DNA of 41,626 nt from Candidatus Omnitrophota bacterium (GTDB lineage Bacteria > Omnitrophota > Gorgyraeia > Gygaellales > Profunditerraquicolaceae), in assembly GCA_028711825.1 (NCBI GenBank), contig JAQTRM010000002.1, positions 1 to 41,626 on the forward strand, written 5' to 3'. Of the stretch, positions 1-35,287 are shown one piece after another. The first letter of the stretch is position 1, and every line of letters begins with the position of its first letter. A program made the translations under genes and the position numbers. The notes under the pieces are model-generated. The model did not search any database. It was not told the origin of the DNA and worked only from the letters and a program-made list of their open reading frames with translations.

Positions 1-723
1 ATTTTCCATTACCATGATCCCCGCCCCTTCCCCGAGCACGAAACCGCTCCTTTTCGAATCAAAAGGGCGGTAGGCACCCGCGGGGTCGGCGTTATTTTTT
101 GATAATGTTCCGTAAGTATTGCAGCATAATAAAGCGTAAGGACTGACCGGGGCTTCCATTCCCCCACCCAGGATCATATTTAATTTATTCTTGGACAGGA
201 CCTTACGGGCATAACCCAGCGCCATCAGGGAACTGGCGCGGTCGCTGACGATAGTTTTACTGAATCCTTTAATACCGTAATATATGGAAACCTGCCCTTG
301 CGGAGCCGCCGGAAACCAGGCGCTCGCCATATAAGGAGAGATTCCCTCCCGGCCTTCAAGGTAAAGATCTCTTAATTCGGTTTCGGCGAAAAGCCACCCT
401 CCGATGGCATTGCCCAAGAAGATTCCCATAAGATTAGGGTCTTCGCTTTTAACGTCGATTGCGGCATCCTGCAGCGCGAGTTCGGCAGCCACCAGCGCCA
501 GATGAGAAAAAGTGTCAATCTTCTTCAGGAGCCTTTCAGAGATATGGCTGTATTTCTCAAGGTCGTCGATCTGCCCGGCGATATGGGAAGGATAAAGCCC
601 CGCGTCGAAACGTGTAATCTCCTTGATAAAAGAACGCCCGCTTTTAATATTGGCCCAGAACTGCCGTTTGCCGATCCCCGACGGGCTAACCACCCCGATA
701 CCGGTAATTGCTATTTTTTTCAT
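1..723 (-). CDS. Ketosynthase-like protein lacking the catalytic cysteine (KS-beta / chain-length-factor-like partner); 3' end runs off the window
   Basis: Absent from the ORF track because it is open at the window edge. My own reverse-strand translation from the ATG at 723..721 gives MKKIAITGIGVVSPSGIGKRQFWANIKSGRSFIKEITRFDAGLYPSHIAGQIDD...GIKGFSKTIVSDRASSLMALGYA...YRPFDSKRSGFVLGEGAGIMVMEN. This is a thiolase-fold condensing-enzyme N-terminal half. Aligned to the upstream KS (NTVSTGCTAGTDSLGFG), the nucleophile position reads Arg (TIVSDRASSLMALGYA). The start overlaps the upstream stop as TAATG. Confidence 0.8.
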   Translation of the reverse strand, partial: MKKIAITGIGVVSPSGIGKRQFWANIKSGRSFIKEITRFDAGLYPSHIAGQIDDLEKYSHISERLLKKIDTFSHLALVAAELALQDAAIDVKSEDPNLMGIFLGNAIGGWLFAETELRDLYLEGREGISPYMASAWFPAAPQGQVSIYYGIKGFSKTIVSDRASSLMALGYARKVLSKNKLNMILGGGMEAPVSPYALLCCNTYGTLSKNNADPAGAYRPFDSKRSGFVLGEGAGIMVMEN

Positions 724-1985
724 TATCCACCAAACCTTCTAAAGATAAGCGAGGAATGAATCCCTGAAAATCCGCTGCTGGTTTTTAAAATCGTATTAAC
801 TTTTTTCGCGATCGCCTGGTTAGGGATATAATACAAATCACATTGGGGGTCTTTTTCCTCCTGGTTTATCGTCGGAGGCAGGATATTCTTCCCGAAAATC
901 ATGCTCACGATCGTCATTTCAATCGCGTTAGCCGCCGCCAGAGGATGCCCGATCATGGATTTAAGCGAGCTAACCGGTAACTTATAGGCGTAATCCCCGA
1001 AAATCGTTTTATAGGCGCTAGTCTCGAAAATATCATTCATCCTGGTACTTGAGCCGTGCGCGTTGATATAGTCAACCTCTTGAGGCTTGACTTGCGCGTC
1101 GGCCAAAGCCAGTCCGATGCAAATTTCCATTGCCCGGCCGTCTGAAGGCAGGTCCGTCATATGAAAAGCGTTACAACTGGTACCGAAACCGAGGATCTCG
1201 CAATAAATCGGGGCGTTGCGTTTTAAGGCATGGTTTAACTCTTCAAGCACCAGGAGCCCGGACCCCTCACCCAGGACAAAACCGTCGCGTTTATTGTCAA
1301 AAGGACGCGACGCTTTTTGCGGTTCATCATTATGCACGGAAAGGACATTCACCACATCAAAAGCGCCGAAAGTAACCGGAGTAAGAGGCGCCTCCGCCGC
1401 TCCGCAAATCATAATATCCTGCTCACCGTCCTGGATGCTCTCCAGGCCGAAACCCAAAGAATCCGTCCCCGCAGTGCACCCCGTAGAAACGGTATTACAA
1501 ACTCCTTTTAAACCAAAACGCGCGCTGATCTCTACCGAAGGGGTGTTAAACATCGCCGCGTCGTAAAGATCGGGGCGCACCAAAGCGGGATTAATCGGCA
1601 TCTTGCCGTTTTCAGTTACCAGGGCGAATTCTTCTTCCATATATTTAGTCCCGCAGATAGCATTAGCAAGACAGACTCCGAGACGCTGAGGGTCCTCCCG
1701 GGATAAATCAAGTTTGCTGTCTTCTACCGCCATCTTCCCGGCCGCCAGGGCAAACTGCACGTAACGGTCCATGCGCATTGCGTCTTCATGCGTCAGGCCG
1801 AATTCAAAAGGGTTAAAATCCCTGACTTCAGCGGCGATTTTGGTGTTAAACACCGAAACATCGAATCCGTCGACAAGACGGATCCCGGATTTACCGTTTA
1901 CAAACCCTTCCCAGGCATTTTTCTTGCCGATACCGTTGGGGGAAATCACCCCGATACCCGTAACTACCACTCGTTTCTTTTCCAT
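723..1985 (-). CDS. Beta-ketoacyl-ACP synthase II family condensing enzyme (FabF-like, Cys-His-His triad intact)
   Basis: 420 aa. N-terminus KRVVVTGIGVISPNGIG; active-site Cys in VSTGCTAGTDS; first His in NAFHMTD; second His in INAHGSSTRMND; C-terminal SSGFSGIHSSLIF. ATG at 1985..1983. Confidence 0.9.
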   Translation of the reverse strand: MEKKRVVVTGIGVISPNGIGKKNAWEGFVNGKSGIRLVDGFDVSVFNTKIAAEVRDFNPFEFGLTHEDAMRMDRYVQFALAAGKMAVEDSKLDLSREDPQRLGVCLANAICGTKYMEEEFALVTENGKMPINPALVRPDLYDAAMFNTPSVEISARFGLKGVCNTVSTGCTAGTDSLGFGLESIQDGEQDIMICGAAEAPLTPVTFGAFDVVNVLSVHNDEPQKASRPFDNKRDGFVLGEGSGLLVLEELNHALKRNAPIYCEILGFGTSCNAFHMTDLPSDGRAMEICIGLALADAQVKPQEVDYINAHGSSTRMNDIFETSAYKTIFGDYAYKLPVSSLKSMIGHPLAAANAIEMTIVSMIFGKNILPPTINQEEKDPQCDLYYIPNQAIAKKVNTILKTSSGFSGIHSSLIFRRFGG

Positions 1986-2002
1986 ATTGGTTTAAACTCC
2001 AG

Positions 2003-2058
2003 CCATAAGTTATAAGCTTTAAGTTATAAGCTTAAAACTTATAACTTACCTCTTACTA
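2003..2058. repeat. Heptad-periodic palindromic element, ATAAG/CTTA type (copy 1)
   Basis: Four consecutive 7-mers ending in TAAG (ccataag ttataag ctttaag ttataag) are directly followed by four 7-mers starting with CTTA (cttaaaa cttataa cttacct cttacta). A perfect 11-bp stem pairs taagttataag (2020-2030) with cttataactta (2038-2048). It lies between the TIGR04076-like gene stop and the KS start. Confidence 0.7.
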
Positions 2059-2081
2059 CTATATTATTTGTATTTTTAGCT

Positions 2082-2687
2082 TCAGGACTTAGAATTATCC
2101 TCCTTTACTCTCTTTACTTTAAAAACAATATTGCCGCCATCCGGGCAGGTTACCGTGTCGATCGAATCCGGATCCGGCATAAAGAAAAACTTTGCCCCGA
2201 AATTCAAGGCGAATAAAGCGGGAAAAGCGGTATGAAATGCCGCGCCGCAGAAGCCCGGAATGCATTTTAGCCCCTGAGTTTCCCACTTATCCCCGACCTT
2301 ATACCCGAAAGCGCATTTACCTTTGGACTGGACCACTTCTACGATCATTTTTTTAGGATTCGGGCCTTTGTGCTCCGGATCCCGCGGTATAAAATCAAGC
2401 TTCCCTTCCTTATCCAGAATCTCCGCTTTAAATTCGAGTTTCCCGCCGTCCGGACAGGTCACCAGCAGGGAGCGTTGATTGTCGCGAAAACCGAATCGCG
2501 CCCCGAAGCTTAAGGCGTAAATCACCGGGAAAAGAGCGTGCGCCAACCCCAAACAAAAGTGCTTGGGGCCGTGGGTAAAATCCTCCAAGGTAAGCTCATC
2601 GCCGACCTTATACCCATGGTAACACTCACCCATCACCTTGGTCACGGTAAGCTTAAGACGGGGGAAAGGGGTTTTCACTTCTTCCAT
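2082..2687 (-). CDS. Tandem-duplicated TIGR04076-like protein (two copies of a ~90-aa Cys-containing module in one polypeptide)
   Basis: 201 aa with a clear internal repeat. Module 1: GECYHGYKVGDELTL...PKHFCLGLAHALFPVIYALSFGARFGF...VTCPDGGKLEFKAE. Module 2: GKCAFGYKVGDKWET...IPGFCGAAFHTAFPALFALNFGAKFFF...VTCPDGGNIVFKVK. The pattern G-x-C...K-x-GD...P-x-x-FC...F-P...FGA-x-F...CPDGG...F matches my recollection of the TIGR04076 family. The family name is from memory and was not searched. Confidence 0.6.
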   Translation of the reverse strand: MEEVKTPFPRLKLTVTKVMGECYHGYKVGDELTLEDFTHGPKHFCLGLAHALFPVIYALSFGARFGFRDNQRSLLVTCPDGGKLEFKAEILDKEGKLDFIPRDPEHKGPNPKKMIVEVVQSKGKCAFGYKVGDKWETQGLKCIPGFCGAAFHTAFPALFALNFGAKFFFMPDPDSIDTVTCPDGGNIVFKVKRVKEDNSKS

Positions 2688-2688
2688 T

Positions 2689-3693
2689 TTAAATATACTC
2701 CCTGGTTTTTTGCAGCAGCTCTTCGCGACTGAAAAAATCGCGGCTGGCCTCCACCCGGTGCACCATTTCCACCAGGGTTTTATTCAAAGGGGCCTGAAGA
2801 CTATTCTCCTCCGCCAACCGCACAAATTCGCCGTTAATATAATCTATCTCCGAGAGCTTTCCGCGCATAATACTTTGCAGGATCGAACCGTATAAAGGAT
2901 CCTTGCTTAAATTTCTCATCATTCCCGAAAAGATCTCGGCGGCATGCGCGCTGGGCATCGCGGTGAGCTTAGTAAGGTTCTCTACCGGGAAACCCGGCAA
3001 GGAAACCAGTTTAATACCAATCTTATCAAAAACTTCAAAAGCCTCTTTCCAAATCGCGATACTGATCCGGCTTACCGCCAGGTCCCCGAAAACTTCCTGC
3101 ATGCTTTTACCCAGGATCGCAGGCAAACAGTTGTTGGCGTTCACAAAAATCTTCAAATACTTCATTCCCCGCATATCCTGGCTGATTACCGTCGGAAACG
3201 CCTTATTCAAAACCAGGCTCAGGGAAAGGATATTTTCCGTAGGCTGAGGATCAAAAACACTGCCCAGTATCCAATTTCCTTCGAAATTATGCACTACCTT
3301 CCCGCTCTCCAGGTTAGTCGAACCGAACATCACGATACTGGAAGCGATCTTTTTTTCCGGCAGATACGCTGCGGCGATCTTATCGGCCTGGATACCGTTC
3401 TGAGTAGTGAGCAGGAGCGCCTCACGGAGAAAACCGGCGTTAGCAGACAAAGCCGTGTCAACATCCTGGGTCTTGGTCGCCAGGATCACCAATTCCGGCG
3501 AAAAATCCAGAGATTCAGCGGTATCCAAACGCACCAGCATGCTGCCGCGAACCCCGGAGATAGATATACCTTTCTGTCCGATCTGACTTATCCCCGGGAG
3601 GCGTCCGACCAGAGTAACATCTTCTCCTTTTTCCTTAAGGTAGCCTGCGACCAGACAACCGATCGCTCCGGCGCCGATTACCGCGATACGCAT
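2689..3693 (-). CDS. 2-dehydropantoate 2-reductase family oxidoreductase (ApbA/PanE-like NAD(P)H ketoreductase)
   Basis: 334 aa. N-terminal Rossmann motif MRIAVIGAGAIGCLVAGYL. Length and overall pattern are typical of ketopantoate reductase family proteins. The ATG overlaps the upstream stop (TAATG at 3691-3695). Confidence 0.75.
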   Translation of the reverse strand: MRIAVIGAGAIGCLVAGYLKEKGEDVTLVGRLPGISQIGQKGISISGVRGSMLVRLDTAESLDFSPELVILATKTQDVDTALSANAGFLREALLLTTQNGIQADKIAAAYLPEKKIASSIVMFGSTNLESGKVVHNFEGNWILGSVFDPQPTENILSLSLVLNKAFPTVISQDMRGMKYLKIFVNANNCLPAILGKSMQEVFGDLAVSRISIAIWKEAFEVFDKIGIKLVSLPGFPVENLTKLTAMPSAHAAEIFSGMMRNLSKDPLYGSILQSIMRGKLSEIDYINGEFVRLAEENSLQAPLNKTLVEMVHRVEASRDFFSREELLQKTREYI

Positions 3694-3971
3694 TATTCCT
3701 GCCTATTCTTGGGGAATCCGTATTTTTTATAATCAAATCCGTTCTGCCCGAGCAGGCGGACCATCATGCTGTAAAACGGGGAGGGAACGTCCGAGAAGAA
3801 AGCCGCCACCACATCCTCTTCCTGAACCCGGTCGCTTTTACGCCCAAAGGCAGACTCTTCAGCCCGGCGCCTGACCACTTCCTCGGTAATATGGCGGTGG
3901 AAAAGGGGGATCTTGGAGATCAAAATCCTGAATTTATTTTCTGTTCCGGTTTCCCAGATCATCATTGCCAT
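3693..3971 (-). CDS. Small PCP_red-like domain protein (protochlorophyllide reductase subunit B C-terminal-like domain), function unknown
   Basis: 92 aa. WETGTENKFRILISKIPLFHRHITEEVVRRRAEESAFGRKSDRVQEEDVVAAF resembles the W-x3-A/T-E-x3-L-x-K-I-P-x-F-x-R...E-x2-A...V-x-x-E-D-V pattern of PF08369. First gene of the operon. Confidence 0.5.
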   Translation of the reverse strand: MAMMIWETGTENKFRILISKIPLFHRHITEEVVRRRAEESAFGRKSDRVQEEDVVAAFFSDVPSPFYSMMVRLLGQNGFDYKKYGFPKNRQE

Positions 3972-3990
3972 CCTGATTTATCACACATAG

Positions 3991-4012
3991 ATATAGTAAA
4001 ATTTTACTATAT
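3991..4012. promoter_or_regulatory. Perfect 22-bp palindrome in the promoter region of the KS operon (candidate operator, possibly PadR)
   Basis: atatagtaaaattttactatat is identical to its reverse complement. It lies 20 bp upstream of the first operon gene (start 3971) and about 95 bp downstream of padR. Confidence 0.4.
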
Positions 4013-4022
4013 AATTCTAATC

Positions 4023-4036
4023 AAGACCATGGTCTT
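4023..4036. promoter_or_regulatory. Perfect 14-bp palindrome (operator or padR terminator stem)
   Basis: aagaccatggtctt is self-complementary. It sits between padR and the downstream operon. No U-tract follows it on the minus strand. Confidence 0.3.
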
Positions 4037-4056
4037 TGTCAAGTGAATTAAGCTAG

Positions 4057-4119
4057 TTATAAGCCATAAGCGAGGAGTTTATAACTTAAAACTTACCGCT
4101 TATATCTTAAATCTTCTTA
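4057..4119. repeat. Heptad-periodic element, ATAAG/CTTA type (copy 2), overlapping the padR stop codon
   Basis: ttataag ccataag cgaggag tttataa, then five in-phase CTTNNNN heptads (cttaaaa cttaccg cttatat cttaaat cttctta). It shares ccataag, ttataag and the 11-mer cttaaaactta with copy 1. Possible stems: gttataa (4056-4062) with ttataac (4080-4086), and ataagcg (4066-4072) with cgcttat (4097-4103). Confidence 0.6.
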
Positions 4120-4622
4120 AGAAGGGATTTTAAAAAACGTTCTTCGGCGCGTAAAAGACAGAGGTTATGCTCCATAATCCTGCGCAGAGGCAAAGAACGC
4201 TTCAATTCACGGGAGATCAGCATACCTTTAATCCCGGAGGAAATCTTTTCCAGGATTTCCAGCCTCTTTTCCAACCGCCGGCGAGCCTGGGAAACTTTCA
4301 GAAAATCAAGGAAATAAAGACTGAGGTCCAGGGTAAACTGCGGACGCGTGAAATCAAGCAGATTCCTATTAAGCAAAGATTCAAACCGCCCTTTGCCTTT
4401 AGGGGTAAGACAATAAACCAACCGGGCGGGCCTTTTGCCTTTTTTGACTACACATTTAGCAAGCAGGCCTTTTTTTTCGAGAATTTTCAGGGGATAATAT
4501 ATCGAGTTAAGCCGGACTCCGGCGAAGAGAGAGAGGATTTTACGGACTTTAACTTTAATTTCATAACCGTGCTTGGGGCTTTGGCGCAGCAGCCCTAACA
4601 GGATAAGCTCCTGGTCGATCAT
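4107..4622 (-). CDS. PadR family transcriptional regulator
   Basis: 171 aa. The winged-helix signature [47 protein letters not shown]...[11 protein letters not shown] is typical of PadR. The ATG overlaps the accA stop (ATGA). Confidence 0.85.
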
Positions 4623-5566
4623 GCGGTAACGCCCATTGACCTGAATTTCTTATACCTTAGTTTAAGCAGCTCATCCTTATCTAAAGAGGCTAGCTCCTTA
4701 AGGCTCTTTAAGATCGATTCTTTAACGCTGGCGGCGATCTTTTGAGGGTCACGGTGAGCCCCGCCTAAAGGTTCAGGGATTACTTCATCGATCAGGCCCA
4801 TTTTAAGGAGGTCCGGACCGGTAAGTTTCAGGGCTTCGGCGGCCTGCGGAGCCTTGGCCCCGTCTTTCCAAAGTATCGCGGCGCATCCTTCGGGAGAAAT
4901 AACAGAATAGTATGAATTCTCCAAAACCGCCAGGCGGTCGGCAACCCCCACCCCCAGAGCTCCTCCCGATCCTCCTTCACCGATCACAATCGCCACGATC
5001 GGAACGGCGCATCCGGCCATTTCTCTTAAATTCAACGCGATCGCGTGGGATTGCCCGCGTTCCTCCGCTCCGACACCCGGATATGCCCCGGGCGTATCAA
5101 TGAAAACTACGATCGGCAATCCGAACTCCTCGGCCATCTGCATCAGGCGCAGCGCCTTACGGTACCCTTCCGGATGCGCGCAGCCGAAATTACGCTTCAA
5201 ATTCTCTTTGGTATCGCGGCCTTTCTGATGGCCGATTACCATAACCTTTTTCTTGTCGATTTTCGCCAGCCCGCAAACCATCGCTTTATCATCGCTGAAA
5301 AGCCGGTCCCCGTGCAATTCCATAAAATCCGACATCATAAGATCTATATAATCCTGAGTATACGGGCGCAGAGGATGACGGGCAAGCTGCACTTTCTGCC
5401 AGGCGGAAAGGTTGACGTAAGTATCTTTTTTCAACTGTTCCAGCTTATCATCCAGTTTTTTAATCTCGCCGGAAAGATCAATCTTCTTTTCCACCATGAA
5501 CGATTTAAGTTCCTGGATCTTCTTTTCCAGCTCTACAATAGGTTTTTCGAAATCTAATCCAGCCAT
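4619..5566 (-). CDS. accA: Acetyl-CoA carboxylase carboxyltransferase subunit alpha
   Basis: 315 aa. [45 protein letters not shown] and [10 protein letters not shown] are canonical AccA motifs. Confidence 0.95.
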
Positions 5567-5571
5567 AGTAA

Positions 5572-6381
5572 TTACTCGATTATTGTAACTTCCGTGCCTG
5601 CGGGAATGATATCATAAAGCTCTTCCACATCGGAATTCTTCAGGCGCACACATCCCTGGGTCACCTGTTTTCCCAGATCCTGCGGCTCAGTGGTCCCGTG
5701 GATACCATAACCCGCCAGGTCGAAACCCATCCAGCGCGTACCCAGAACATTCTCCTGGCTCTCCGGAGGAACCACCGCACCCGCCTTAAACCAGGTAGGA
5801 TTGGCAAGCTTGTTGACAACCTTAAAAGTACCCGCGGGGGTACAATTATTCTTGCCGGTAGAAACAATATAGGTCTTCACAATCTCTTCGTCGCTCTTCA
5901 ACATGAGGATATTTTGCGATTTATCCACCAAAACACTGAAAGGGGAATTCCACACCTTGATCTTGCGGCCGGGGATAATAAGCGAATCGCTGATATTATT
6001 ACTTTTCATAATAAGCTCAACGGTAGTCTTGTATCGACGGGCGATCTTATTCAAGGTATCCCCGGGACGGATCTCATAGGTGATGCTCTTGGGGGTAATG
6101 GCGGGCGAAAAAAGCAGCTTAATATTTATCTCTTCGTTTTTCTTCTGCCAGTCCATTATTTCGGGGGATTCCGGAAAATCAGCAACCAGTTTCTGATATA
6201 ATAATTTAGCCCCCCAAAGATCCCCTTTAGATTCCAGATTACGCGCCTGTTCCGAAAGCGAACGCGTAGATGAACTCTCGGAAGAAGAAACGGTTTTACA
6301 TATCTTCTTGCCGCTTAAAAAAACAAGTGCGCCCCCGGCAACAACCACAGAAACGGCAATGATCCAAATCTTTTTATTCAC
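5572..6381 (-). CDS. LysM domain-containing L,D-transpeptidase (YkuD family)
   Basis: 269 aa. N-terminal TM helix; LysM motif [29 protein letters not shown]; YkuD catalytic region GIHGT...TQGCVRL. Confidence 0.85.
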
Positions 6382-6396
6382 CTGCTCCCCCTTCTC

Positions 6397-6849
6397 CTAT
6401 CTGCTCCAAAAAACCAGGGCAATTACCACGCCCAGAAAAAAACCCATAATTACTTCCACCGGAGTATGCCCGATAAGCTCGCGTAAACGCTCCTGCCGGA
6501 TCTTTCCGCGCCAGTAGATATCCTCCATGATCGTATTCAGGATACCCGCCTGCTTTCCGGTGGAACGGCGCACCCCTTGCGCGTCGAACATCACCACGAT
6601 CGCGAAAGCGAAGGCCAGGGCGAAATAAACACTGTCAAACCCGCATTCCAAACCGATGCTCGTCCCCAGGCAGGCCGCCCCCGCGGCGTGCGCCGAAGGC
6701 ATTCCGCCGCTGCCGATAAAAAGGCGAAAATCAAACTTTTTCTTGCGAAAGACCCCGATCATTACCTTGATCGTCTGGGCGACCAGCCAGGCGGAAACCG
6801 TCGCCATAAGGATCTTGTTCCTATAGATCTCGATTAGAAAATCCTTCAT
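6397..6849 (-). CDS. Divergent PAP2 family membrane protein (DUF212 / acid phosphatase-vanadium haloperoxidase related)
   Basis: 150 aa. Multi-TM, with the signature GGMPSAHAA and FDAQGVRR...GH. Confidence 0.8.
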   Translation of the reverse strand: MKDFLIEIYRNKILMATVSAWLVAQTIKVMIGVFRKKKFDFRLFIGSGGMPSAHAAGAACLGTSIGLECGFDSVYFALAFAFAIVVMFDAQGVRRSTGKQAGILNTIMEDIYWRGKIRQERLRELIGHTPVEVIMGFFLGVVIALVFWSR

Positions 6850-7394
6850 TCTTCCTTGCTTTTTACGGGGAGGACCTCGATTTTAACCTTACCGGACTGT
6901 CCGTCTTTAACCAGGAAACCCCGGTTTTCTCCAGCAGGGACTCCGGAATTACTGTTTTTTACAGATTGCTTCTCCTTGAGGACTTTCTGCGGATTAATCC
7001 GGGGCCCTGAAGAGGAAGGCTGCCCGGACCCGGCGTAAATACTTTTCTGGATTGTAACAAGCGCCTCATTCTGGGCCTTAACCGCCTTCAACTCATCCTG
7101 CATGCCGGACTTCTCCCGGAAAAGGCGCCTTAGCCTATCGCGGCCAGCCTTAACATAGGCTTTAAGCCGGGCGTTTTTCTCGGTCAGATTTTTATTGGAA
7201 ACCTTCTCCTTCCCCAATTCCTGCAATAAGTTTTGTTTCTCCTTGGTCAATGAAAGAACTTCTTCCCGGGTTTTCTGCAAATCACTCTGGAGTAAAGAAC
7301 GCGTTTTTAACCACCCCGTATATCCGAAAAGAGCGAAACCGGAAAAAATTAAGAATAAAGCAAGCGCTAGAGTTTTAATCCTTTCCTTATTCAT
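6846..7394 (-). CDS. Hypothetical membrane-anchored coiled-coil protein
   Basis: 182 aa. One N-terminal TM helix (ALALFLIFSGFALFGY) followed by a heptad-rich K/E/L/Q region. No recognisable family. It is in the operon frame with a 4-nt overlap to the downstream gene. Confidence 0.5.
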   Translation of the reverse strand: MNKERIKTLALALFLIFSGFALFGYTGWLKTRSLLQSDLQKTREEVLSLTKEKQNLLQELGKEKVSNKNLTEKNARLKAYVKAGRDRLRRLFREKSGMQDELKAVKAQNEALVTIQKSIYAGSGQPSSSGPRINPQKVLKEKQSVKNSNSGVPAGENRGFLVKDGQSGKVKIEVLPVKSKEE

Positions 7395-7435
7395 AAGGCT
7401 ATATTATATAATCACCCTCTCAAAAAGCAAGCTAT

Positions 7436-7679
7436 TTTCAGCTTTCAGCTATCAGTCGTCAGCCTTTAGCTAAAGCCGAGAAGCAAAAAACGCGTAACTG
7501 GTAATTAGTAACTCGTAATTTAGAGCAAAAGCTTAAAGAATGCGCCTTAAGCCTAAGGTTAGGAACAATTACGCTTTCAGAAGTATATGGTTTTGTTTTT
7601 GGTTTAAATCCTAATTAATTACGAGTTACTATTTACGTTAATTCTGTTTTTGCTGAAGGCTGATAGCTGACGGCTGAAA
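7436..7679. repeat. Nested heptad-periodic inverted-repeat element, TCAGC/GTAAC type (copy A)
   Basis: Outer left arm, 5 heptads: tttcagc tttcagc tatcagt cgtcagc ctttagc (7436-7470). Inner left arm, 4 heptads: gtaactg gtaatta gtaactc gtaattt (7494-7521). Unique core of about 95 bp. Inner right arm: taattac gagttac tatttac (7616-7636). Outer right arm, 4 heptads: gctgaag gctgata gctgacg gctgaaa (7652-7679). The right arms are reverse complements of the left-arm heptad types. Confidence 0.8.
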
Positions 7680-13575: not shown

Positions 13576-14958
13576 TCATTTCCCGATACAGAAATCCGCG
13601 AAGATCTTATCCAGAAGTTCCGCGGAAAAGTCTTTACCCAGGATATTATCCAGGTAGGCACAGGCATCTTTCAAATCCTGAGTGATAAGCTCCAGAGAAG
13701 AGTCTCCCCTCAACATCCTGTCCGCCTCCTCAAGGAGACCGCGGGCATCCCGCAAAGCATGGATATGTCTAAGGTTACTTAATAAGATATGTTCCGGGTT
13801 CAGCGCTCTTCCCCGGCAGGCAAAATCGAAAATCGCCTCTTCCAGCAGCTCCAAATTCCTTCCGGTCCTGGCGGCAAGCTCTACGACCCTGGGGAAAAAT
13901 CCGGAAATCTCTTTCTTATCAATCTGCGCTTTTAGATCAATCTTGTTGATTACCGCAATAACATTCCTGTTTTTTAACTCCCGGACTAACTCCTTATCCC
14001 GGAGTCCGATTCTTCTGCCGGCATCGAACAAAAGAATCACCAGGTCCGCGGAAGCGATGCGCTCACGGGAACGCTTTACCGCTTTTTTTTCGATTAAATT
14101 ACGCGGCTTAAGGATTCCGGCGGTATCCACCAGCCTCACCGGGATCCCCCTGACATCAACCGCTTCCTCGATCGTATCCCGGGTTGTCCCGGCGACAGGA
14201 GTAACAATAGAACGTTCTTTTTTTAATAACGCGTTAAGAAGGGAAGATTTACCGACGTTCGGTTTCCCGCAAATGACCGCCTGGAGCCCCTCGCGCAGGA
14301 TGCGTCCGCCGAATGATCCTTCGAGGAGAATATCCATCTGCCGGATGGCGGCATGCAGCCCGGATGAAATTTTTTCCGCATCGTATCCCCGGATATCCTC
14401 TTCCGGAAAATCAATGTTCGCTTCCAGAATTACCAGGATTTCCATTACCCCTTCCCGGATCTTGCCAATCCTGCGGGATAATCCCCCTTCCAGCTGTCCC
14501 AGGCTTACTTTAAGCGCGGATGCGGTCTTGGCGCGGATAAGATCGATCACCGCTTCCGCCTGGGCAAGATCGATGCGCCCGTTCAAAAACGCCCGCCGGG
14601 TGAATTCTCCCGGACCGGCAAGGCGACAGCCGTGTTGAACCGTCAGATCGAGAATGCGGCGTAAAGATAATAGTCCACCATGGCAATTTATTTCGACAAT
14701 ATCCTGGCGGGTATAAGATTTCGGACCCCGCATCACCGTAAGCAAAACCTCATCCACCATCTTACCATTATCGGTAATCCTGCCGTAATGCACGGTATGG
14801 CTTTTAAAACCCGACGGTTTTCCTTTTTCCGAAGAAACGAAGATCTTATCCGCCACCGTCAGGGCCTTTTCTCCGCTCAAACGGACAATCCCGATACCAC
14901 CCTCCCCCTGAGGAGTAGAAATCGCGGCAATCGTATCTTTCAAATCATCCTTAAACAT
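13576..14958 (-). CDS. mnmE: tRNA uridine-5-carboxymethylaminomethyl modification GTPase MnmE
   Basis: 460 aa. N-terminal IAAISTPQGEGGIGIVRLSG; G1 GKPNVGKSSLLNAL; G3 DTAG; NKIDL; C-terminal FCIGK tetrapeptide. Confidence 0.95.
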   Translation of the reverse strand: MFKDDLKDTIAAISTPQGEGGIGIVRLSGEKALTVADKIFVSSEKGKPSGFKSHTVHYGRITDNGKMVDEVLLTVMRGPKSYTRQDIVEINCHGGLLSLRRILDLTVQHGCRLAGPGEFTRRAFLNGRIDLAQAEAVIDLIRAKTASALKVSLGQLEGGLSRRIGKIREGVMEILVILEANIDFPEEDIRGYDAEKISSGLHAAIRQMDILLEGSFGGRILREGLQAVICGKPNVGKSSLLNALLKKERSIVTPVAGTTRDTIEEAVDVRGIPVRLVDTAGILKPRNLIEKKAVKRSRERIASADLVILLFDAGRRIGLRDKELVRELKNRNVIAVINKIDLKAQIDKKEISGFFPRVVELAARTGRNLELLEEAIFDFACRGRALNPEHILLSNLRHIHALRDARGLLEEADRMLRGDSSLELITQDLKDACAYLDNILGKDFSAELLDKIFADFCIGK

Positions 14959-16273
14959 TCCTGAATTCCCCCACTACGAATAACGAACCGGTTACCAGCA
15001 CCAGGTCTTGCTTTCCCGCCAGCGAAAAAGCAAGACGCCTGGCCTCCCGCACGCTTCCGGTCAAAGAATTTTTTTTCCTGAGATAACCGGAGATTTCCGC
15101 CGGGGACGCCGCGCGCGCGGTAGAAGCGCGCGTAACGATTATTTCGTCGGCAAACGGCTCAAGTTCCCCGCAAATCCCGCGGATATCTTTATCGGAAGAA
15201 ATTCCCAGCACTAAAATTAACTTCCGGTATTTGAAATTATCCGCTACCGCTTTCCGGATCGCGCGCGCCGAAGCCTTGTTCTGCGCGCCGTCTAAAACCA
15301 CCAAGGGATTCTTGGCCGCTACTTCGCACCTTCCCGGCCATAAAGTTTTATGCAGGCCCCTCCGGATAGCGGAAGAAGAAATCTTAAAACCGGAGAAGCT
15401 CAATCCCTCGACCAATCCGACAGCCAAGGCGGCGTTAGCTTCCTGGTGCCTGCCCCGCAGCTTCAACCCGATACCGCGGTAATTATCGTTTAGGCCCCGC
15501 ACTGTCAGCTTCCCGCCGGAACTGGAATACCGGATATTCTTGCCAACCTCAAAAAGCCTGGCCCGGAACCTCCGGCTCCTTTTAAGGAGAATTTTCCGGA
15601 CCTCCGCGCACTGCGGAGCCGAAATAACGATCGAACCATTTTTTTTAATAATCCCCGCTTTTTGGGCGGCAATCTTTGATAAAGTATTGCCCAGCTGCCG
15701 GCAGTGTTCGAAACTGATAGGGGTAATTCCGCAGACCAGGGAATCCGCGATATTGGTCGCGTCCAACCTCCCCCCCATCCCGGTCTCCAAAACCGTAAAA
15801 TCCGTATTGCGGCGGCGGAAATATAAAAAAGCCAGCGCGGTATAAACCTCAAAGAAGGAAAGGGGACCGTATTCACAACGGCGGTTATACCTGCCGATCA
15901 AAGGCTTTAGTTCCCCGACCAGGTCCGCCAGTTCATTTTTCGAAATCTCTCCCTCAAAATCCCGGAATTCTTTCCCGCCGGATGACGGTTTAAGAATCCG
16001 GATCCTTTCCCTAAAACTCTTTAGATGCGGTGAAGTATAGAGCCCGACGGAAAATCCGGCCTCCCTCAAAATATAGGCGGTCATCGCGCAAACCGAACCT
16101 TTTCCTTTGGTCCCGGCGACATGAATAACTTTTAAATATTTCTGGGGGTTGCCGATGAAAGTTAAGAAATCCCGGACGCGCCTGAGCTTCAGCGAAGAAA
16201 AAAGGGGGCACCCGGCGTCTTTTTCATAGTTTGTCAGGGATTCCAAATACTGTCTTGCTTCCAGGTAGGTCAT
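14951..16273 (-). CDS. folC: Bifunctional folylpolyglutamate synthase / dihydrofolate synthase
   Basis: 440 aa. Mur-ligase P-loop HVAGTKGKGS; LYTSPHL; ETGMGGRLDATN; C-terminal VLDGAQN. Confidence 0.9.
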   Translation of the reverse strand: MTYLEARQYLESLTNYEKDAGCPLFSSLKLRRVRDFLTFIGNPQKYLKVIHVAGTKGKGSVCAMTAYILREAGFSVGLYTSPHLKSFRERIRILKPSSGGKEFRDFEGEISKNELADLVGELKPLIGRYNRRCEYGPLSFFEVYTALAFLYFRRRNTDFTVLETGMGGRLDATNIADSLVCGITPISFEHCRQLGNTLSKIAAQKAGIIKKNGSIVISAPQCAEVRKILLKRSRRFRARLFEVGKNIRYSSSGGKLTVRGLNDNYRGIGLKLRGRHQEANAALAVGLVEGLSFSGFKISSSAIRRGLHKTLWPGRCEVAAKNPLVVLDGAQNKASARAIRKAVADNFKYRKLILVLGISSDKDIRGICGELEPFADEIIVTRASTARAASPAEISGYLRKKNSLTGSVREARRLAFSLAGKQDLVLVTGSLFVVGEFRNV

Positions 16274-18803: not shown

Positions 18804-19991
18804 TTATTCCAGGTAGGTATAAATCTTCCCCTTGTAATTGCGTAAAACGTATTTGCCTTTTGCTTGCGAAAGAATATAATTCGGGCCTACGGGAATCTTG
18901 CCTCCCCCTCCCGGGCCGTCGATAACATAAGTAGGGACGGCGTACCCGGAAGTGTGGCCGCGGAGCTTTTCGATAATATTAATACCTGTAGCCACCGGGG
19001 TGCGGAAATGCTGAGTCCCCCTCACCGGATCGCACTGGTAAATATAATAGGGTCTTACCCTGATCTGCAAAAGATCATGCACCAGTCGTTTCATAATGAA
19101 CGGACGGTCATTGATCCCTTTAAGCAGGACAGTCTGGCTGCCCAAAGGAATACCGCTTTCGGCAAGCATATCGCAGGCGTTCTTGCAGCGCCGGGTAATC
19201 TCTTTAGGGTGATTAAAATGCATACTCATCCAGATCGGCGAGTATTTTTTAAGCATCTGGGTCAATTTTTCGGTAATACGCTGCGGCAAGGTCACCGGGA
19301 TGCGGGTGCCGATCCTTAAAAACTCCACATGCGATATGGAGCGGATCTTGGAAATCAAAGATTCCAGGGCTTCGTCCTCCAAAGTCAAAGGGTCGCCTCC
19401 GGAAATCAAAACATCACGGATCTTACGGTTGGATTTAATATACTCTATCGCCGCATCGAACTTGGTGTCAAAATCCGCTTCTTTCTCTTCATGGTCGCCT
19501 ACCAGGCGGCGGCGGGTGCAATGCCGGCAATACATTGCGCAATGGTCCGTAGCCAGCAGCAAAACCCGGTCCGGATAACGGTGTACCAGATGCGGCGCGG
19601 GAGAATCGCGATCCTCGGCGCAGGGATCCGCCATCTCATGGGGCGAAACGGAAAATTCATCCCCCACCGGAACGGACTGCCTCCGGATCGGACAATTCGG
19701 ATCTTCGGCATCGATCTGGCTTGCCCAATAAGGGGTAATCGCCATCGACAACCTTCCCTTTGCCTTATCAATCCCCTTTTCCTCTTCGGGGGTAAGCTTA
19801 ATAATCTGGGCCAGCTCTTCCTTGGTATGGATACGATGTTTAAGCTGCCAATGCCAATCCTCCCAATCCAGGGGATTGACATCTTTATAAAGCGCGATTT
19901 GCTGGTAATCCCGGGAACGCTTGGGAGCCCGGTAAACTGCGGGCGTTTCAATCGCTGCCTTCTGATTCTCTAAGCTTACGGGATTATTCAA
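18804..19991 (-). CDS. kamA: Lysine 2,3-aminomutase (KamA family radical SAM / PLP enzyme)
   Basis: 395 aa. WEDWHWQLKHRI; SMAITPYW; radical-SAM cluster CAMYCRHCTRR; ISGGDPL; RPYYIYQCDPVRGTQHFRTP; RGHTSGYAVPTYVIDGPGGGGKIPV. The apparent start is TTG at 19991..19989, overlapping the upstream TGA (TTGA), and is preceded by the purine-rich ggaaaggaaaagg. Confidence 0.9.
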   Translation of the reverse strand: MNNPVSLENQKAAIETPAVYRAPKRSRDYQQIALYKDVNPLDWEDWHWQLKHRIHTKEELAQIIKLTPEEEKGIDKAKGRLSMAITPYWASQIDAEDPNCPIRRQSVPVGDEFSVSPHEMADPCAEDRDSPAPHLVHRYPDRVLLLATDHCAMYCRHCTRRRLVGDHEEKEADFDTKFDAAIEYIKSNRKIRDVLISGGDPLTLEDEALESLISKIRSISHVEFLRIGTRIPVTLPQRITEKLTQMLKKYSPIWMSMHFNHPKEITRRCKNACDMLAESGIPLGSQTVLLKGINDRPFIMKRLVHDLLQIRVRPYYIYQCDPVRGTQHFRTPVATGINIIEKLRGHTSGYAVPTYVIDGPGGGGKIPVGPNYILSQAKGKYVLRNYKGKIYTYLE

Positions 19992-20989
19992 TTCAGCCTT
20001 TTCCTTTCCGAGGCGCTTAAGAGTATCGCCTCAATAAGATCTTCGTATTTCATCCCGGCGGCATAAGCCATAAGAGGAAAATTCGACTCTTTAGGGTCCA
20101 GTCCGGGCAGAGGGTTGATCTCCAGAACATAAGGCACGTTGAATTTATTTAAACGGATATCGGTGCGCGAAATATCCAGGCATCCTACCGCCCGGTGGGT
20201 GCGTAAAGCGACATCCTTAACTTTCTCTTCGGTCTCCTTGTCCAGGCGGGCCGGACAATGGAATTCCGGGACTAAACCCAGCTCGCGGTTACCCTGGAAT
20301 TCCTTCATCTTCCAGGAATAAAAATACTCTCCGCTTTGCTTGCAGTTTGAAAAATCAATCTCCAGGATCGGCAGCACCCGGGTTTTTCCATTCTCCAGAA
20401 TCCCCACTGTCAGCTCTTTCCCTTCGATAAATTCCTCAACCAGCGCTTCCTGCTGGTAAAGATCAATACATTTCTTAACCCGGAGCTTAAGATCTTCCGG
20501 ATTATCCACCACATTCGTTTTATTGATCCCTTTTGCCGAACCCTCGCAATTAGGCTTAACGATCAAAGGGAATTTTAAACCGGGATCCAGGATTTCATTC
20601 CCTTTAACAAAAAGCTGGAAATTGGGAGTAGGGATATTCTCGGCCTTAAGGATTTTTTTTGTCAGGGTTTTATTCAACGCCAGCGCCAGAGAGAACATGT
20701 TGGAACCGGTATGCGGGATATTCAAATAATCCAATAACGCCGGAACCTCGCTTTCCCGGAAACGGCCGTGTTTCCCTTCGGCGATATTAAACACCATATC
20801 CACACGGTTCTGGCGGAAGTATGAAAACAACGCGGGATATTCCAGGTCAATCGCTTCCACCGAATGCCCTTTGGTTCTTAAGGCCGCGGCTACGGAATTA
20901 ATTGTTTCTTCGGAATCGCACTCTGAAAAATAATCTGCCGGTTTCAAAGGATCCTTTTTCTTTAAATTATATGTCAGGGCTACTCGCAT
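19988..20989 (-). CDS. ATP-grasp ligase, D-Ala-D-Ala ligase-like family (paralogue 2)
   Basis: 333 aa. FPLIVKPNCEGSAKGI (phosphate-binding loop), ALVEEFIEGKELTVGIL, and C-terminal Mg/ATP site DISRTDIRLNKFNVPYVLEINPLPGL. It lacks the canonical Ddl N-terminal GGxSxE motif. Confidence 0.8.
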   Translation of the reverse strand: MRVALTYNLKKKDPLKPADYFSECDSEETINSVAAALRTKGHSVEAIDLEYPALFSYFRQNRVDMVFNIAEGKHGRFRESEVPALLDYLNIPHTGSNMFSLALALNKTLTKKILKAENIPTPNFQLFVKGNEILDPGLKFPLIVKPNCEGSAKGINKTNVVDNPEDLKLRVKKCIDLYQQEALVEEFIEGKELTVGILENGKTRVLPILEIDFSNCKQSGEYFYSWKMKEFQGNRELGLVPEFHCPARLDKETEEKVKDVALRTHRAVGCLDISRTDIRLNKFNVPYVLEINPLPGLDPKESNFPLMAYAAGMKYEDLIEAILLSASERKRLN

Positions 20990-30752: not shown

Positions 30753-30831
30753 TGGCGGGGCCGACGAGATTCGGACTCGCGATCTCCTCCGTGACAGGGA
30801 GGCGCTTTGAACCAGGCTAAGCTACGACCCC
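30753..30831 (-). tRNA. tRNA-Asp (anticodon GTC), CCA encoded
   Basis: The reverse complement is ggggtcgtagcttagcctggttcaaagcgcctccctgtcacggaggagatcgcgagtccgaatctcgtcggccccgcca. Acceptor ggggtcg/cggcccc; anticodon arm cctcc-ctGTCac-ggagg; T-arm gcgag-tccgaat-ctcgt. Confidence 0.9.
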
Positions 30832-30970
30832 AAAATTTGAAACTTATTATACTTATTTATCCACCCAAAGTCTACTACTTTATTTTCCGCGCGCTTCCTG
30901 ACGAAAATAACCCTTCAACAATCCCGAACTAAAAGACCGGGGTTGTCAGGCGGCGAACGTATAAAATTTA

Positions 30971-31047
30971 TGGTGGGCGATAGAGGAGTTGAACCCCTGA
31001 CCTTCTGAATGTAAATCAGACGCTCTAACCAACTGAGCTAATCGCCC
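30971..31047 (-). tRNA. tRNA-Val (anticodon TAC), CCA encoded
   Basis: The reverse complement is gggcgattagctcagttggttagagcgtctgatttacattcagaaggtcaggggttcaactcctctatcgcccacca. Acceptor gggcgat/atcgccc; D-arm gctc...gagc; anticodon arm tctga-ttTACat-tcaga; T-loop ttcaact. Confidence 0.92.
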
Positions 31048-31503: not shown

Positions 31504-31504
31504 T

Positions 31505-33900: not shown

Positions 33901-33992
33901 ATCGATTTTCCGGAACGGTTATTTTTTAGGCCAGCCGTGTTAAAGCCGGTGTCATCGGAACTATTTTTACGGTTGCCGGAGGCAACCTGGCT

Positions 33993-35285: not shown

Positions 35286-35287
35286 CT

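What the first reader, a model, noticed from the sequence alone, without database searches (positions are those of the whole stretch)
1..1985. Translationally coupled ketosynthase plus Cys-less ketosynthase partner (KS-alpha/KS-beta-like heterodimer signature)
The first gene is a complete FabF-type enzyme with Cys (STGCTAG), His (FHMTD) and His (NAHGSST). The second starts within the first gene's stop (TAATG). My translation shows a condensing-enzyme fold, but the nucleophile position is Arg (SDRASS aligned to TGCTAG).

An active KS paired with an inactive KS-like subunit is the hallmark of type II PKS KS/CLF pairs and of aryl-polyene-type systems. Housekeeping fatty-acid synthesis does not use such a pair. 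An Arg at the Cys position differs from the Gln of classical actinomycete CLFs.

The pathway continues beyond the window edge, so ACP, KR and DH genes cannot be assessed.
Basis: partly seen in the sequence, partly recalled or inferred. Interest (0 to 1): 0.62.

Follow-up and report, generated by a model that had tools for sequence, protein, structure and literature searches.

The report
Omnitrophota type II polyketide synthase pair
The two overlapping genes are the active ketosynthase and its catalytically dead "chain-length factor" partner of an aromatic (type II) polyketide synthase. This cluster is kept almost unchanged in more than a hundred species of the uncultured phylum Omnitrophota, and its product is unknown.

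Summary
KS1 (723-1985, minus strand) is a complete Cys-His-His ketosynthase. KS2 starts in KS1's stop codon (TAATG) and runs off the window. A 99.9%-identical contig gives its full 409 aa, with Arg/Asp/Asp in place of Cys/His/His.

Downstream lie a B12-radical SAM enzyme, an ACP, an OxyN-type cyclase, a TcmN/WhiE-type aromatase/cyclase, an MFS transporter, an SDR and an aromatic-acid-decarboxylase-like amidohydrolase. In a neighbour-joining tree KS1 groups with PKS KS-alpha proteins (AntD, C. beijerinckii, Ktedonobacter; 98% bootstrap). KS2 groups with chain-length factors (97%). Both lie apart from FabF.

The Arg is not new. The C. beijerinckii/C. puniceum (probably clostrubin) and Ktedonobacter racemifer CLFs carry the same D-R-A motif. 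A 2023 catalogue already lists KS-CLF pairs in Candidatus Omnitrophica.

Three things are unusual:
- At least 117 Omnitrophota species genomes encode a KS2 relative. The 80 loci examined show the same gene order wherever the contig is long enough.
- The cluster proteins are as conserved as the housekeeping AccA.
- A BchE-like B12-radical SAM gene and a TIGR04076 protein of unknown fold travel with it, also in Desulfobacterota.

Verdict: a new member of a known kind, of moderate interest.

The parts
1..723 (-). KS2, the chain-length factor (KS-beta). The window holds the N-terminal 241 of 409 aa. Asp161-Arg162 replaces Gly-Cys. The gene continues beyond window position 1.
   Evidence: The full length was read from L001:11263-12492.
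723..1985 (-). KS1, the active ketosynthase (KS-alpha), 420 aa, with Cys170/His275/His310. Its stop codon overlaps the KS2 start.
   Evidence: The best PDB match is AntD 6smo_B at 373.6 bits. KS1 shares with AntD and ActKS a 5-residue insertion that B. subtilis FabF lacks.
2006..2048 (.). Lineage-specific palindrome (18-nt arms, 94% complementary) in the 96-nt spacer between the TIGR04076 gene and KS1. It is not conserved. Most orthologous loci have a spacer of only 9-13 nt here.
2082..2687 (-). Tandem-domain TIGR04076 protein (201 aa) with conserved Cys/His in each half. It is the immediate upstream partner of KS1 in every orthologous locus, and occurs in four other type II PKS loci fetched via more distant CLF relatives.
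   Evidence: The AF2 model has pLDDT 71.5 and no Foldseek match in the PDB.
2689..3693 (-). ApbA/PanE-family NAD(P)H oxidoreductase (334 aa). It is syntenic with the PKS in Omnitrophota, in Desulfobacterota (L087) and in L094.
3693..3971 (-). Small conserved protein (92 aa) of unknown function. It is the first gene of the apparent operon, and its stop codon overlaps the ApbA start.
   Evidence: It has only a sub-threshold DUF2621 hit.
4014..4042 (-). Best sigma-70-like promoter match in the region (TTGACA-17-TAGAAT, 11 of 12), about 43 nt upstream of the 92-aa gene.
   Evidence: This is a consensus match only.
4107..4622 (-). PadR-family transcriptional regulator directly upstream. It is adjacent in roughly half to two-thirds of the orthologous loci and is a candidate cluster regulator.
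4619..5566 (-). AccA, the acetyl-CoA carboxylase carboxyltransferase alpha subunit. It is a housekeeping supplier of malonyl-CoA, and was used here as the yardstick for conservation.

Best explanation
KS1 and KS2 are the KS-alpha and chain-length-factor (KS-beta) subunits of a type II aromatic polyketide synthase. It has the 'ancestral', non-actinobacterial architecture (KS-CLF-ACP-OxyN-type cyclase-TcmN-type cyclase), and is encoded in the chromosome of an Omnitrophota bacterium from anoxic landfill or groundwater.

**Shown**
- KS1 keeps the Cys-His-His triad.
- KS2 has lost all of it (Arg/Asp/Asp).
- The two genes overlap (TAATG).

**Inferred by homology**
- The two proteins form a heterodimer.
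- KS1 carries out iterative decarboxylative Claisen condensations of malonyl units on the dedicated 77-aa ACP (Ser36).
- KS2 shapes the tunnel that sets chain length.
- The unreduced poly-beta-ketone is folded and aromatised by the TcmN/WhiE-ORFVI-like SRPBCC cyclase. Further rings are closed by the PF04199 (OxyN-type) cyclase.
- The terminal carboxylate is probably removed by the ACMSD/LigW-like amidohydrolase.
- An SDR, an ApbA-like reductase and a BchE-like B12-radical SAM enzyme tailor the product. The radical SAM step is most likely C-methylation, or alternatively an oxygen-independent oxidation.
- An MFS pump, present in about two-thirds of the loci long enough to show that position, exports the product.

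The invariant Asp161-Arg162 of the CLF is a family trait shared with the C. beijerinckii/C. puniceum (probably clostrubin) and Ktedonobacter CLFs. Its role (priming by malonyl-ACP decarboxylation, or structural) is not known. The product is unknown.
For: **Catalytic residues and overlap.**

**Cluster content on the 99.9%-identical contig L001**.
- KS1 and KS2.
- B12-radical SAM: CxxxCxxC motif, BchE model 210 bits.
- ACP.
- PF04199 cyclase with HVGTHLDYSFH.
- SRPBCC, MFS, SDR and Amidohydro_2.

**Homology of the tailoring proteins.**
- The best solved relatives of the SRPBCC protein are WhiE ORFVI (3tl1/3tvr/2kf2) and TcmN aromatase/cyclase, at E about 1e-25.
- The amidohydrolase resembles ACMSD, 5-carboxyvanillate and gamma-resorcylate decarboxylases.

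**Match to the C. beijerinckii type II PKS locus.** Six proteins match in the same order:
- KS 46%, CLF 45%, ACP 32%.
- Cyclase 44%, SRPBCC 40%, amidohydrolase 35%.
- That CLF is WP_077837155 of C. beijerinckii, with a C. puniceum twin.

**NJ tree**.
- KS-alpha plus CLF versus FabF: 90% bootstrap.
- CLF clade including KS2: 97%.
- KS1 with AntD, C. beijerinckii and Ktedonobacter KS: 98%.
- KS2 scores higher against act CLF 1tqy_B (266 bits) than against act KS 1tqy_A (230 bits).

**Literature.**
- The architecture KS-CLF-ACP-TcmN-OxyN is described as ancestral in PMC7693217.
- KS-CLF pairs in Ca. Omnitrophica are catalogued in PMC10132072.

**Conservation.**
- 117 GTDB species genomes encode a KS2 relative. 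The best 80 loci were fetched (74-86% identity) and the gene order is the same wherever the contig is long enough.
- Mean pairwise protein divergence is 0.16 for KS1, 0.19 for KS2 and 0.11 for the radical SAM enzyme, against 0.20 for AccA.
- KS distances correlate with AccA distances (r = 0.82-0.84).
Against: - No product, heterodimer or activity has been shown for this or any close relative.
- By raw similarity both proteins are about as close to Firmicutes FabF as to characterised PKS subunits. KS1 scores 363 bits to B. subtilis FabF and 374 to AntD. For KS2, five FabFs score slightly above act CLF.
- The tree is neighbour-joining on 39 sequences. It lacks act CLF, AntE, ApeO/ApeC, Iga11/12 and the anammox pair. 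The deeper KS-alpha node that includes ActKS has only 52% support.
- The classical CLF Gln is absent.
- No malonyl transferase, phosphopantetheinyl transferase or oxygenase is in the cluster.
- Housekeeping-level conservation is atypical for an antibiotic-type gene cluster.
Confidence: 0.85

Rival explanations
1. The pair is a fatty-acid-type KS/CLF-like heterodimer, as recently described for the anammox ladderane cluster. On this reading it makes an unusual membrane lipid that the B12-radical SAM enzyme then modifies.
For: - Conservation across species is at housekeeping level, and accA is often adjacent.
- A B12-radical SAM gene sits between the CLF and the ACP, and gives a weak hit to the 'lipid biosynthesis B12/radical SAM' model TIGR04072 (67.7 bits).
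- A 2026 preprint shows that KS/CLF-like pairs do exist in a FAS-like pathway.
- Genome mining has labelled some Omnitrophota clusters 'ladderane'.
Against: - The TIGR04072 score is far below its cut-off of 360.
- No FabZ, FabI or FabG-type reducing set is in the cluster.
- Two aromatic-polyketide cyclases are present, plus an aromatic-acid-decarboxylase-like protein.
- The gene order is KS then CLF, as in PKS. The anammox order is the reverse.
- KS1 and KS2 score lower against 9s5h_B/C than against AntD/ActKS and act CLF. 9s5h is a KS heterodimer entry that I take, without having verified it, to be the anammox pair.
Confidence: 0.06
2. The pair belongs to a highly reducing type II PKS (aryl-polyene, ishigamide or cispentacin type) that makes a polyene or another reduced chain.
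For: - CLF-like partners lacking the Cys occur in those systems.
- An SDR is present in the cluster.
- KS1 hits the cispentacin AmcF model at E=3e-50 and the ACP hits AmcB at E=1.6e-7. Both are far below the cut-offs.
Against: - No dehydratase or enoyl reductase is in the 21-kb locus.
- The SDR is missing from the Desulfobacterota and C. beijerinckii versions of the cluster, whereas the two cyclases are always there.
- Iga11 (6kxd) and the entry 7f27 are much weaker PDB matches than AntD/ActKS.
Confidence: 0.04
3. The genes are ordinary FabF paralogues. One is a decaying or regulatory copy, and the pair serves housekeeping fatty-acid synthesis.
For: - Both proteins match FabF models strongly. 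KS1 passes the PRK07314 subfamily cut-off.
- NaPDoS2 classified 48% of the non-actinobacterial CLF candidates in the published catalogue as type II FAS.
Against: - KS1 is below the fabF equivalog cut-off.
- KS2's substitutions are invariant in 84 orthologues and the protein is under strong purifying selection, so it is not decaying.
- No fabD, fabG, fabH, fabZ or acpP lies nearby.
- The tree separates both proteins from FabFs.
Confidence: 0.02

Closest known systems
Type II PKS of Clostridium beijerinckii / C. puniceum (most likely the clostrubin clr cluster: ClrA/ClrB, ACP, OxyN-type and TcmN-type cyclases)
   Same: - The core gene order is the same: KS, CLF, ACP, PF04199 cyclase, SRPBCC cyclase, and later an Amidohydro_2 protein. 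Identities run from 32% to 46%.
- The CLF has the same Asp-Arg-Ala motif at the nucleophile position.
- The host is a strict anaerobe.
   Different: - The clostridial locus has no B12-radical SAM, TIGR04076 or ApbA genes. It does have PPTases, a KSIII and hydrolases.
- I infer that this locus is clr from the species names and the literature. I did not check it against a clr accession.
- The Omnitrophota cluster is kept across more than 100 species.
AntD/AntE anthraquinone type II PKS of Photorhabdus luminescens (PDB 6SMO)
   Same: - AntD is the best solved match of KS1 (373.6 bits). It groups with KS1 at 98% bootstrap.
- It is a non-actinobacterial, 'ancestral' system.
- Its CLF lacks Gln: Asp is reported at that position.
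   Different: - AntE did not appear among the top 60 matches of KS2.
- The ant cluster is reported to use a duplicated TcmN-TcmN cyclase arrangement.
Actinorhodin KS/CLF (PDB 1TQY), the classical actinobacterial minimal PKS
   Same: - KS1 scores 363 bits against the act KS.
- KS2 scores higher against the act CLF (266 bits) than against the act KS (230 bits).
- The KS-then-CLF gene order is the same.
   Different: - The classical CLF has Gln where KS2 has Arg (for the Gln).
- The link between ActKS and this KS-alpha group has only 52% bootstrap.
Ktedonobacter racemifer minimal type II PKS (KrKS/CLF, KrACP)
   Same: - Its CLF (WP_007919165 cluster, P0150) is 41% identical to KS2 and has the VSDRASG motif.
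- Its neighbours include a PF04199 cyclase, O-methyltransferases, a cupin and an FAD monooxygenase.
   Different: - It comes from an aerobic Chloroflexota organism and has oxygen-dependent tailoring genes.
- In the 8-kb locus fetched it has no radical SAM gene. tblastn with the TIGR04076 protein found nothing there at 1e-5.
Anammox amxFabF2/amxFabFmut heterodimer (ladderane fatty-acid cluster; preprint 10.64898/2026.05.19.726425)
   Same: An active KS is paired with a triad-less homologue in an anaerobe, near radical SAM genes.
   Different: - There Cys is replaced by Val or Thr, the inactive copy is encoded upstream, and the context is fatty-acid synthesis without aromatic cyclases.
- Sequence similarity to KS1/KS2 is weaker than for the PKS proteins, if 9s5h is that complex.

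Membership tests
Type II (aromatic) polyketide synthase, minimal PKS | A KS-alpha with an intact Cys-His-His catalytic triad. | tested here: met
   C170/H275/H310 are present in KS1 and invariant in 79 orthologues.
Type II (aromatic) polyketide synthase, minimal PKS | An adjacent KS homologue (CLF/KS-beta) that lacks the nucleophilic Cys and is co-transcribed or coupled with the KS. | tested here: met
   KS2 has R162/D267/D302. Its start overlaps the KS1 stop (TAATG).
Type II (aromatic) polyketide synthase, minimal PKS | Gln at the CLF position equivalent to the KS Cys (the classical actinobacterial CLF signature). | tested here: not met
   The residue is Arg, invariant in 84 orthologues. This feature is not universal. 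The C. beijerinckii/C. puniceum and K. racemifer CLFs also have Arg, and AntE is reported with Asp.
Type II (aromatic) polyketide synthase, minimal PKS | A dedicated discrete ACP in the cluster. | tested here: met
   A 77-aa PP-binding protein with a Asp35-Ser36 motif is at L001:14134-14367. It lies outside the window, on the 99.9%-identical contig.
Type II (aromatic) polyketide synthase, minimal PKS | Aromatase/cyclases dedicated to poly-beta-ketone folding (TcmN/WhiE-type SRPBCC; OxyN-type PF04199). | tested here: met
   The SRPBCC protein matches WhiE ORFVI and TcmN at E about 1e-25. PF04199 matches at 2e-28. The cyclase is 44% identical to that of the C. beijerinckii PKS locus.
Type II (aromatic) polyketide synthase, minimal PKS | Phylogenetic placement of the two subunits in the KS-alpha and CLF clades rather than with FabF. 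| tested here: met
   In an NJ tree with 200 bootstraps, support is 90% (PKS versus FabF), 97% (CLF clade) and 98% (KS1 with AntD, C. beijerinckii and Ktedonobacter KS). The reference set is limited.
Type II (aromatic) polyketide synthase, minimal PKS | Heterodimer formation and production of an aromatic polyketide. | not testable with these tools
   No multimer prediction or experiment was available.
Housekeeping FabF (beta-ketoacyl-ACP synthase II) | Score above the fabF equivalog cut-off, and a position within a fab operon. | tested here: not met
   KS1 scores 457.3 against the TIGR03150 cut-off of 493.75, and the KS2 fragment scores 201.8. No fabD, fabG, fabH, fabZ or acpP is in the window or in L001.
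Aryl-polyene / highly reducing type II PKS | Dedicated dehydratase(s) and ketoreductase acting each cycle, with no aromatic cyclases. | tested here: not met
   No FabZ/FabA-like dehydratase is among the genes of the 21-kb locus, and two aromatic cyclases are present. APE-specific HMMs were not available.
Ladderane-type lipid cluster | A TIGR04072 lipid-biosynthesis B12/radical SAM protein, an amxACP and an unusual FabZ. | tested here: not met
   The radical SAM enzyme scores 67.7 against the TIGR04072 cut-off of 360. Its best model is BchE at 209.8, also below its cut-off. No FabZ is present.

The most novel reading that the evidence does not exclude
The cluster is not an occasional antibiotic pathway. 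It is a vertically inherited, core pathway of a large Omnitrophota lineage, with a Desulfobacterota counterpart. It would make an aromatic polyketide tailored without oxygen.

On this reading the highly conserved BchE-like B12-radical SAM enzyme, together with the Cys/His-rich TIGR04076 protein of unknown fold, performs an O2-independent ring modification. That could be a water-derived oxidation to a quinone, or a radical C-methylation. The product would serve a physiological role in these nano-sized anaerobes, such as a redox-active cofactor or shuttle, or a host-interaction factor.
Probability: 0.2. Interest if true: 0.72.

Novelty: new member of a known kind. Interest (0 to 1): 0.5.

Why it matters
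Type II PKSs are known almost entirely from actinomycetes. The few characterised anaerobe systems (clostrubin, dendrubins, wexrubicin) yielded new chemistry and antibiotics.

This cluster is kept in at least 117 species-level genomes of an uncultured phylum thought to live as ultra-small, possibly host-dependent cells. Its proteins diverge no faster than AccA. That points to a product that matters for the organisms' physiology rather than a dispensable extra.

The cluster also offers test cases for three open questions:
- What a non-Gln (Arg) chain-length factor does in chain initiation.
- How aromatic polyketides are tailored without oxygen, given the B12-radical SAM here and the HemN-type radical SAM and U32 proteins in relatives.
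- What the TIGR04076 domain does.

Tried and rejected
1. **Profile search of the PDB with an 18-member CLF alignment**, and a search with the Ktedonobacter CLF, to obtain act CLF and AntE alignments. FabFs filled the top five places, so act CLF and AntE could not be added to the tree.
2. **Structure of the TIGR04076 protein.** The AF2 model is of moderate quality (pLDDT 71.5). Foldseek against the PDB gave nothing below E=0.6. The PDB sequence search was also empty.
3. **Expression evidence.**
   - No RNA run was listed for the operon.
   - One wastewater RNA-seq run gave a single 210-nt contig across the KS1/KS2 junction (694-901). This is suggestive of co-transcription but weak, and DNA carry-over is not excluded.
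4. **The palindrome upstream of KS1 as a conserved operator.** I rejected this, because the spacer is 9-13 nt in most relatives and different species carry unrelated inserts.
5. **A quinone-cofactor role.** I considered it but found no support. A 2026 preprint on complete Omnitrophota genomes describes fragmentary respiratory chains.
6. **Literature searches.** Searches for TIGR04076, and for B12-radical SAM together with type II PKS, found nothing relevant.
Full report
**1. Observation**

The minus strand of window 1-1985 carries two condensing-enzyme genes.

Both Pfam ketoacyl-synthase domains are full length. It scores 457 bits on the fabF equivalog model, just under that model's cut-off of 493.75.

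KS2 begins with the ATG at 723..721, which shares its A with KS1's TAA (…GGATAATGAAA…). It stays open to the window edge, giving 241 aa.

Two alignments put Arg162 of …TIVSDRASS… exactly opposite the nucleophilic Cys. One is the phmmer alignment to Listeria FabF. The other is a MAFFT alignment with 38 other KS, CLF and FabF sequences.

**2. Extending beyond the window**

An exact-protein look-up of KS1 returned six contigs. They are 99.7-99.9% identical to the window where they overlap. L001 is 99.9% identical over window 1-7440.

L001 gives the full KS2 (409 aa). Besides Cys→Arg it has Asp at both catalytic His positions and Asn at the fourth conserved His.

Downstream on the same strand the genes are:
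- a B12-binding radical SAM enzyme (486 aa, CxxxCxxC; best model BchE at 210 bits, below its cut-off);
- a 77-aa ACP (Asp35-Ser36);
- a PF04199 'cyclase' with HVGTHLDYSFH;
- a 146-aa SRPBCC protein;
- an MFS transporter;
- an SDR;
- a secreted CBM11-like protein;
- a 138-aa unknown protein;
- an Amidohydro_2 protein.

Upstream in the window lie a tandem TIGR04076 protein, an ApbA/PanE-type reductase and a 92-aa protein. The ApbA stop and the TIGR04076 start are one base apart. The stop of the 92-aa gene overlaps the ApbA start. The TIGR04076 gene ends 96 nt upstream of KS1 (9-13 nt in most relatives, section 5). These are preceded by the best promoter-like site in the region (4042-4014), a PadR regulator and accA.

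**3. What kind of system**

The SRPBCC protein's closest solved relatives are the WhiE ORFVI and TcmN aromatase/cyclases, at E about 1e-25. From published work on TcmN, which I recall rather than tested, these close the first ring (C9-C14) of unreduced poly-beta-ketones.

PF04199 is the family of OxyN-type later-ring cyclases. The dendrubin paper describes 'KS-CLF-ACP-TcmN-OxyN' as the ancestral non-actinomycete architecture (PMC7693217).

The amidohydrolase resembles non-oxidative aromatic-acid decarboxylases: ACMSD, LigW and gamma-resorcylate decarboxylase. This fits the terminal decarboxylation proposed for dendrubins and pyxidicyclines.

No dehydratase, enoyl reductase or fab gene is in the locus or elsewhere in the window. 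The rest of the window is housekeeping: V-type ATPase, pyrimidine and purine genes, mnmE, folC and two tRNAs.

**4. Relatives and the Arg residue**

A search of 1.8 billion cluster representatives found many roughly 410-aa relatives at 37-57% identity. Most carry D-R-A at the nucleophile position. Some carry Ile, Lys, Met, Thr or Ala instead.

Cluster look-ups identified two of them:
- P0129 (46% identical) is the CLF of Clostridium beijerinckii and C. puniceum, the clostrubin producers.
- P0150 (41%) is the Ktedonobacter racemifer CLF, whose minimal PKS has been expressed and studied.

The C. beijerinckii locus matches six Omnitrophota proteins in the same order: KS 46%, CLF 45%, ACP 32%, cyclase 44%, SRPBCC 40% and amidohydrolase 35%.

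The Arg is therefore the usual state in this 'ancestral' CLF group, not a peculiarity of this locus. AntE is reported to have Asp there (PMC6638757).

**5. Phylogeny**

I built a neighbour-joining tree (Kimura distances, 409 columns, 200 bootstraps). Six FabFs, AntD and ActKS were taken from the PDB alignments printed. The results are:
- All KS-alpha plus CLF sequences separate from FabF at 90%.
- KS2 falls in a 97% CLF clade.
- KS1 falls in a 98% clade with AntD and the C. beijerinckii, Ktedonobacter and Desulfobacterota KS proteins.

KS1 also shares with AntD and ActKS a 5-residue insertion that B. subtilis FabF lacks.

There are three caveats. The method is simple. Act CLF, AntE, ApeO/C, Iga11/12 and the anammox pair are missing. 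The node joining ActKS has only 52% support.

**6. Distribution and conservation**

A scan of one genome per GTDB species found 117 genomes encoding a KS2 relative. The best 80 loci, at 74-86% identity, were fetched. They carry Omnitrophota titles, or titles such as 'uncultured Planctomycetales' that I take to be mislabels.

tblastn with the L001 proteins shows the same gene order in essentially every locus long enough to hold it: 92aa-ApbA-TIGR04076-KS1-KS2-rSAM-ACP-cyclase-SRPBCC-(MFS)-SDR-(CBM11)-138aa-Amidohydro_2.

The TIGR04076-KS1 spacer is only 9-13 nt in most of them. The 96-nt spacer in the window holds a lineage-specific palindrome.

About 30 species also have accA next door. Among these the mean pairwise protein divergence is:

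| Protein | Mean divergence |
|---|---|
| AccA | 0.20 |
| KS1 | 0.16 |
| KS2 | 0.19 |
| TIGR04076 | 0.15 |
| radical SAM | 0.11 |

KS distances track AccA distances (r = 0.82-0.84). This indicates vertical inheritance under strong purifying selection, which is unusual for a specialised-metabolite cluster.

**7. A wider conserved module**

The closest non-Omnitrophota CLF (57% identity) is in a cluster whose named members are Deltaproteobacteria (Desulfobacterota) MAGs. It sits in a locus with the same partners in a different arrangement. That locus also has two aldehyde:ferredoxin-oxidoreductase-family genes. The shared partners and their identities to the Omnitrophota proteins are:
- B12-radical SAM, 51%;
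- ApbA, 51%;
- fused TIGR04076, 57%;
- KS, CLF and ACP;
- cyclase and SRPBCC;
- MFS;
- Amidohydro_2.

TIGR04076-domain genes also flank KS-CLF in three further loci fetched via more distant CLF relatives (L090, L094, L095). Radical SAM genes recur as well: a B12-type in L096, and two HemN-type plus a U32 protein in L095.

Radical SAM C-methylation of an anthraquinone by a HemN-like enzyme has a published precedent (the title of PMC9714029, listed). From memory, not tested here, U32 proteins are O2-independent aromatic hydroxylases in anaerobic ubiquinone synthesis. Together this suggests that anaerobes equip this PKS type with oxygen-independent tailoring enzymes.

The TIGR04076 protein has conserved Cys and His in each repeat. 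Its AF2 model is of moderate quality and has no structural match.

**8. Prior knowledge**

A 2023 catalogue of KS-CLF pairs lists Candidatus Omnitrophica among 14 phyla. It notes a largely unexplored, FabF-proximal non-actinobacterial clade (PMC10132072).

I found no paper describing this cluster, its radical SAM or TIGR04076 association, or its conservation.

A 2026 preprint shows a KS/CLF-like heterodimer in the anammox ladderane fatty-acid cluster. A lipid role therefore had to be considered. Gene content, gene order and similarity argue against it here.

**9. Verdict**

The system is a new member of the known 'ancestral' type II aromatic PKS kind. Its product and the roles of Arg162, the radical SAM enzyme and TIGR04076 are inferred or unknown.

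Interest is moderate (0.5). It comes from the housekeeping-like conservation in an uncultured phylum and from the recurrent oxygen-independent tailoring partners, not from the Arg residue.

Noticed in passing
window 2082-2687 (-); also L087:8029-8619, L090:95-661, L094:1179-1851, L095:15341-15649: The TIGR04076-domain protein occurs fused in tandem in Omnitrophota and Desulfobacterota, and as single domains elsewhere. It recurs next to KS-CLF genes in five separate groups of loci. Each repeat has invariant Cys/His (C22, H24, C45, H50, C78; C125, C147, H152, C181). The AF2 model has no Foldseek match in the PDB.
   Followed up: partly
L001:12585-14045 (just beyond window position 1): The BchE-like B12-radical SAM gene inserted between the CLF and the ACP is the most conserved protein of the cluster. 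Its mean pairwise divergence is 0.11, against 0.20 for AccA. The Desulfobacterota locus L087 has a 51%-identical copy at a different position.
   Followed up: partly
window 2006-2048, and the same spacer in L009, L010, L012, L014, L016, L020 and L041: The spacer between the TIGR04076 gene and KS1 is 9-13 nt in most species. In several lineages it has acquired unrelated palindromic or repeat inserts of 60-140 nt (up to 385 nt in the longest case), which look like REP- or MITE-type elements.
   Followed up: partly
L095:15666-20173: A distant relative of the PKS cluster carries two HemN-like radical SAM genes, a CMD protein and a U32 peptidase-family gene beside the cyclase. This looks like a set of oxygen-independent tailoring enzymes.
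   Followed up: no
L087:4851-6824 and 14177-16156: Two aldehyde:ferredoxin oxidoreductase-family genes are embedded in the Desulfobacterota version of the cluster. They could reduce a carboxylate or an aromatic ring.
   Followed up: no
window 18804-21982 (-): A lysine-2,3-aminomutase-like radical SAM gene (PF04055 plus LAM_C) is followed by two adjacent ATP-grasp (D-Ala-D-Ala-ligase-like) genes. They may form a beta-amino-acid ligation module.
   Followed up: no
window 31054-38165 (-): This is a V/A-type ATPase operon: an E-like subunit, a DUF2764 protein, then A, B, D, I and c/K subunits. Pyrimidine genes (pyrF, pyrD with its Fe-S partner) lie upstream, and tRNA-Val and tRNA-Asp lie at 30753-31047. 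The setting is chromosomal housekeeping, not a mobile island.
   Followed up: partly
window 694-901: A 210-nt contig from a wastewater RNA-seq run (about 97.6% identical) spans the KS1/KS2 junction. This is compatible with co-transcription in a related strain, but it is weak evidence.
   Followed up: partly
L001:17979-18587: A CBM11-like protein with a signal peptide lies inside the conserved cluster. It is present in about half to two-thirds of the loci long enough to show it. Its role is unclear; it may be unrelated to the pathway or may bind the product.
   Followed up: no
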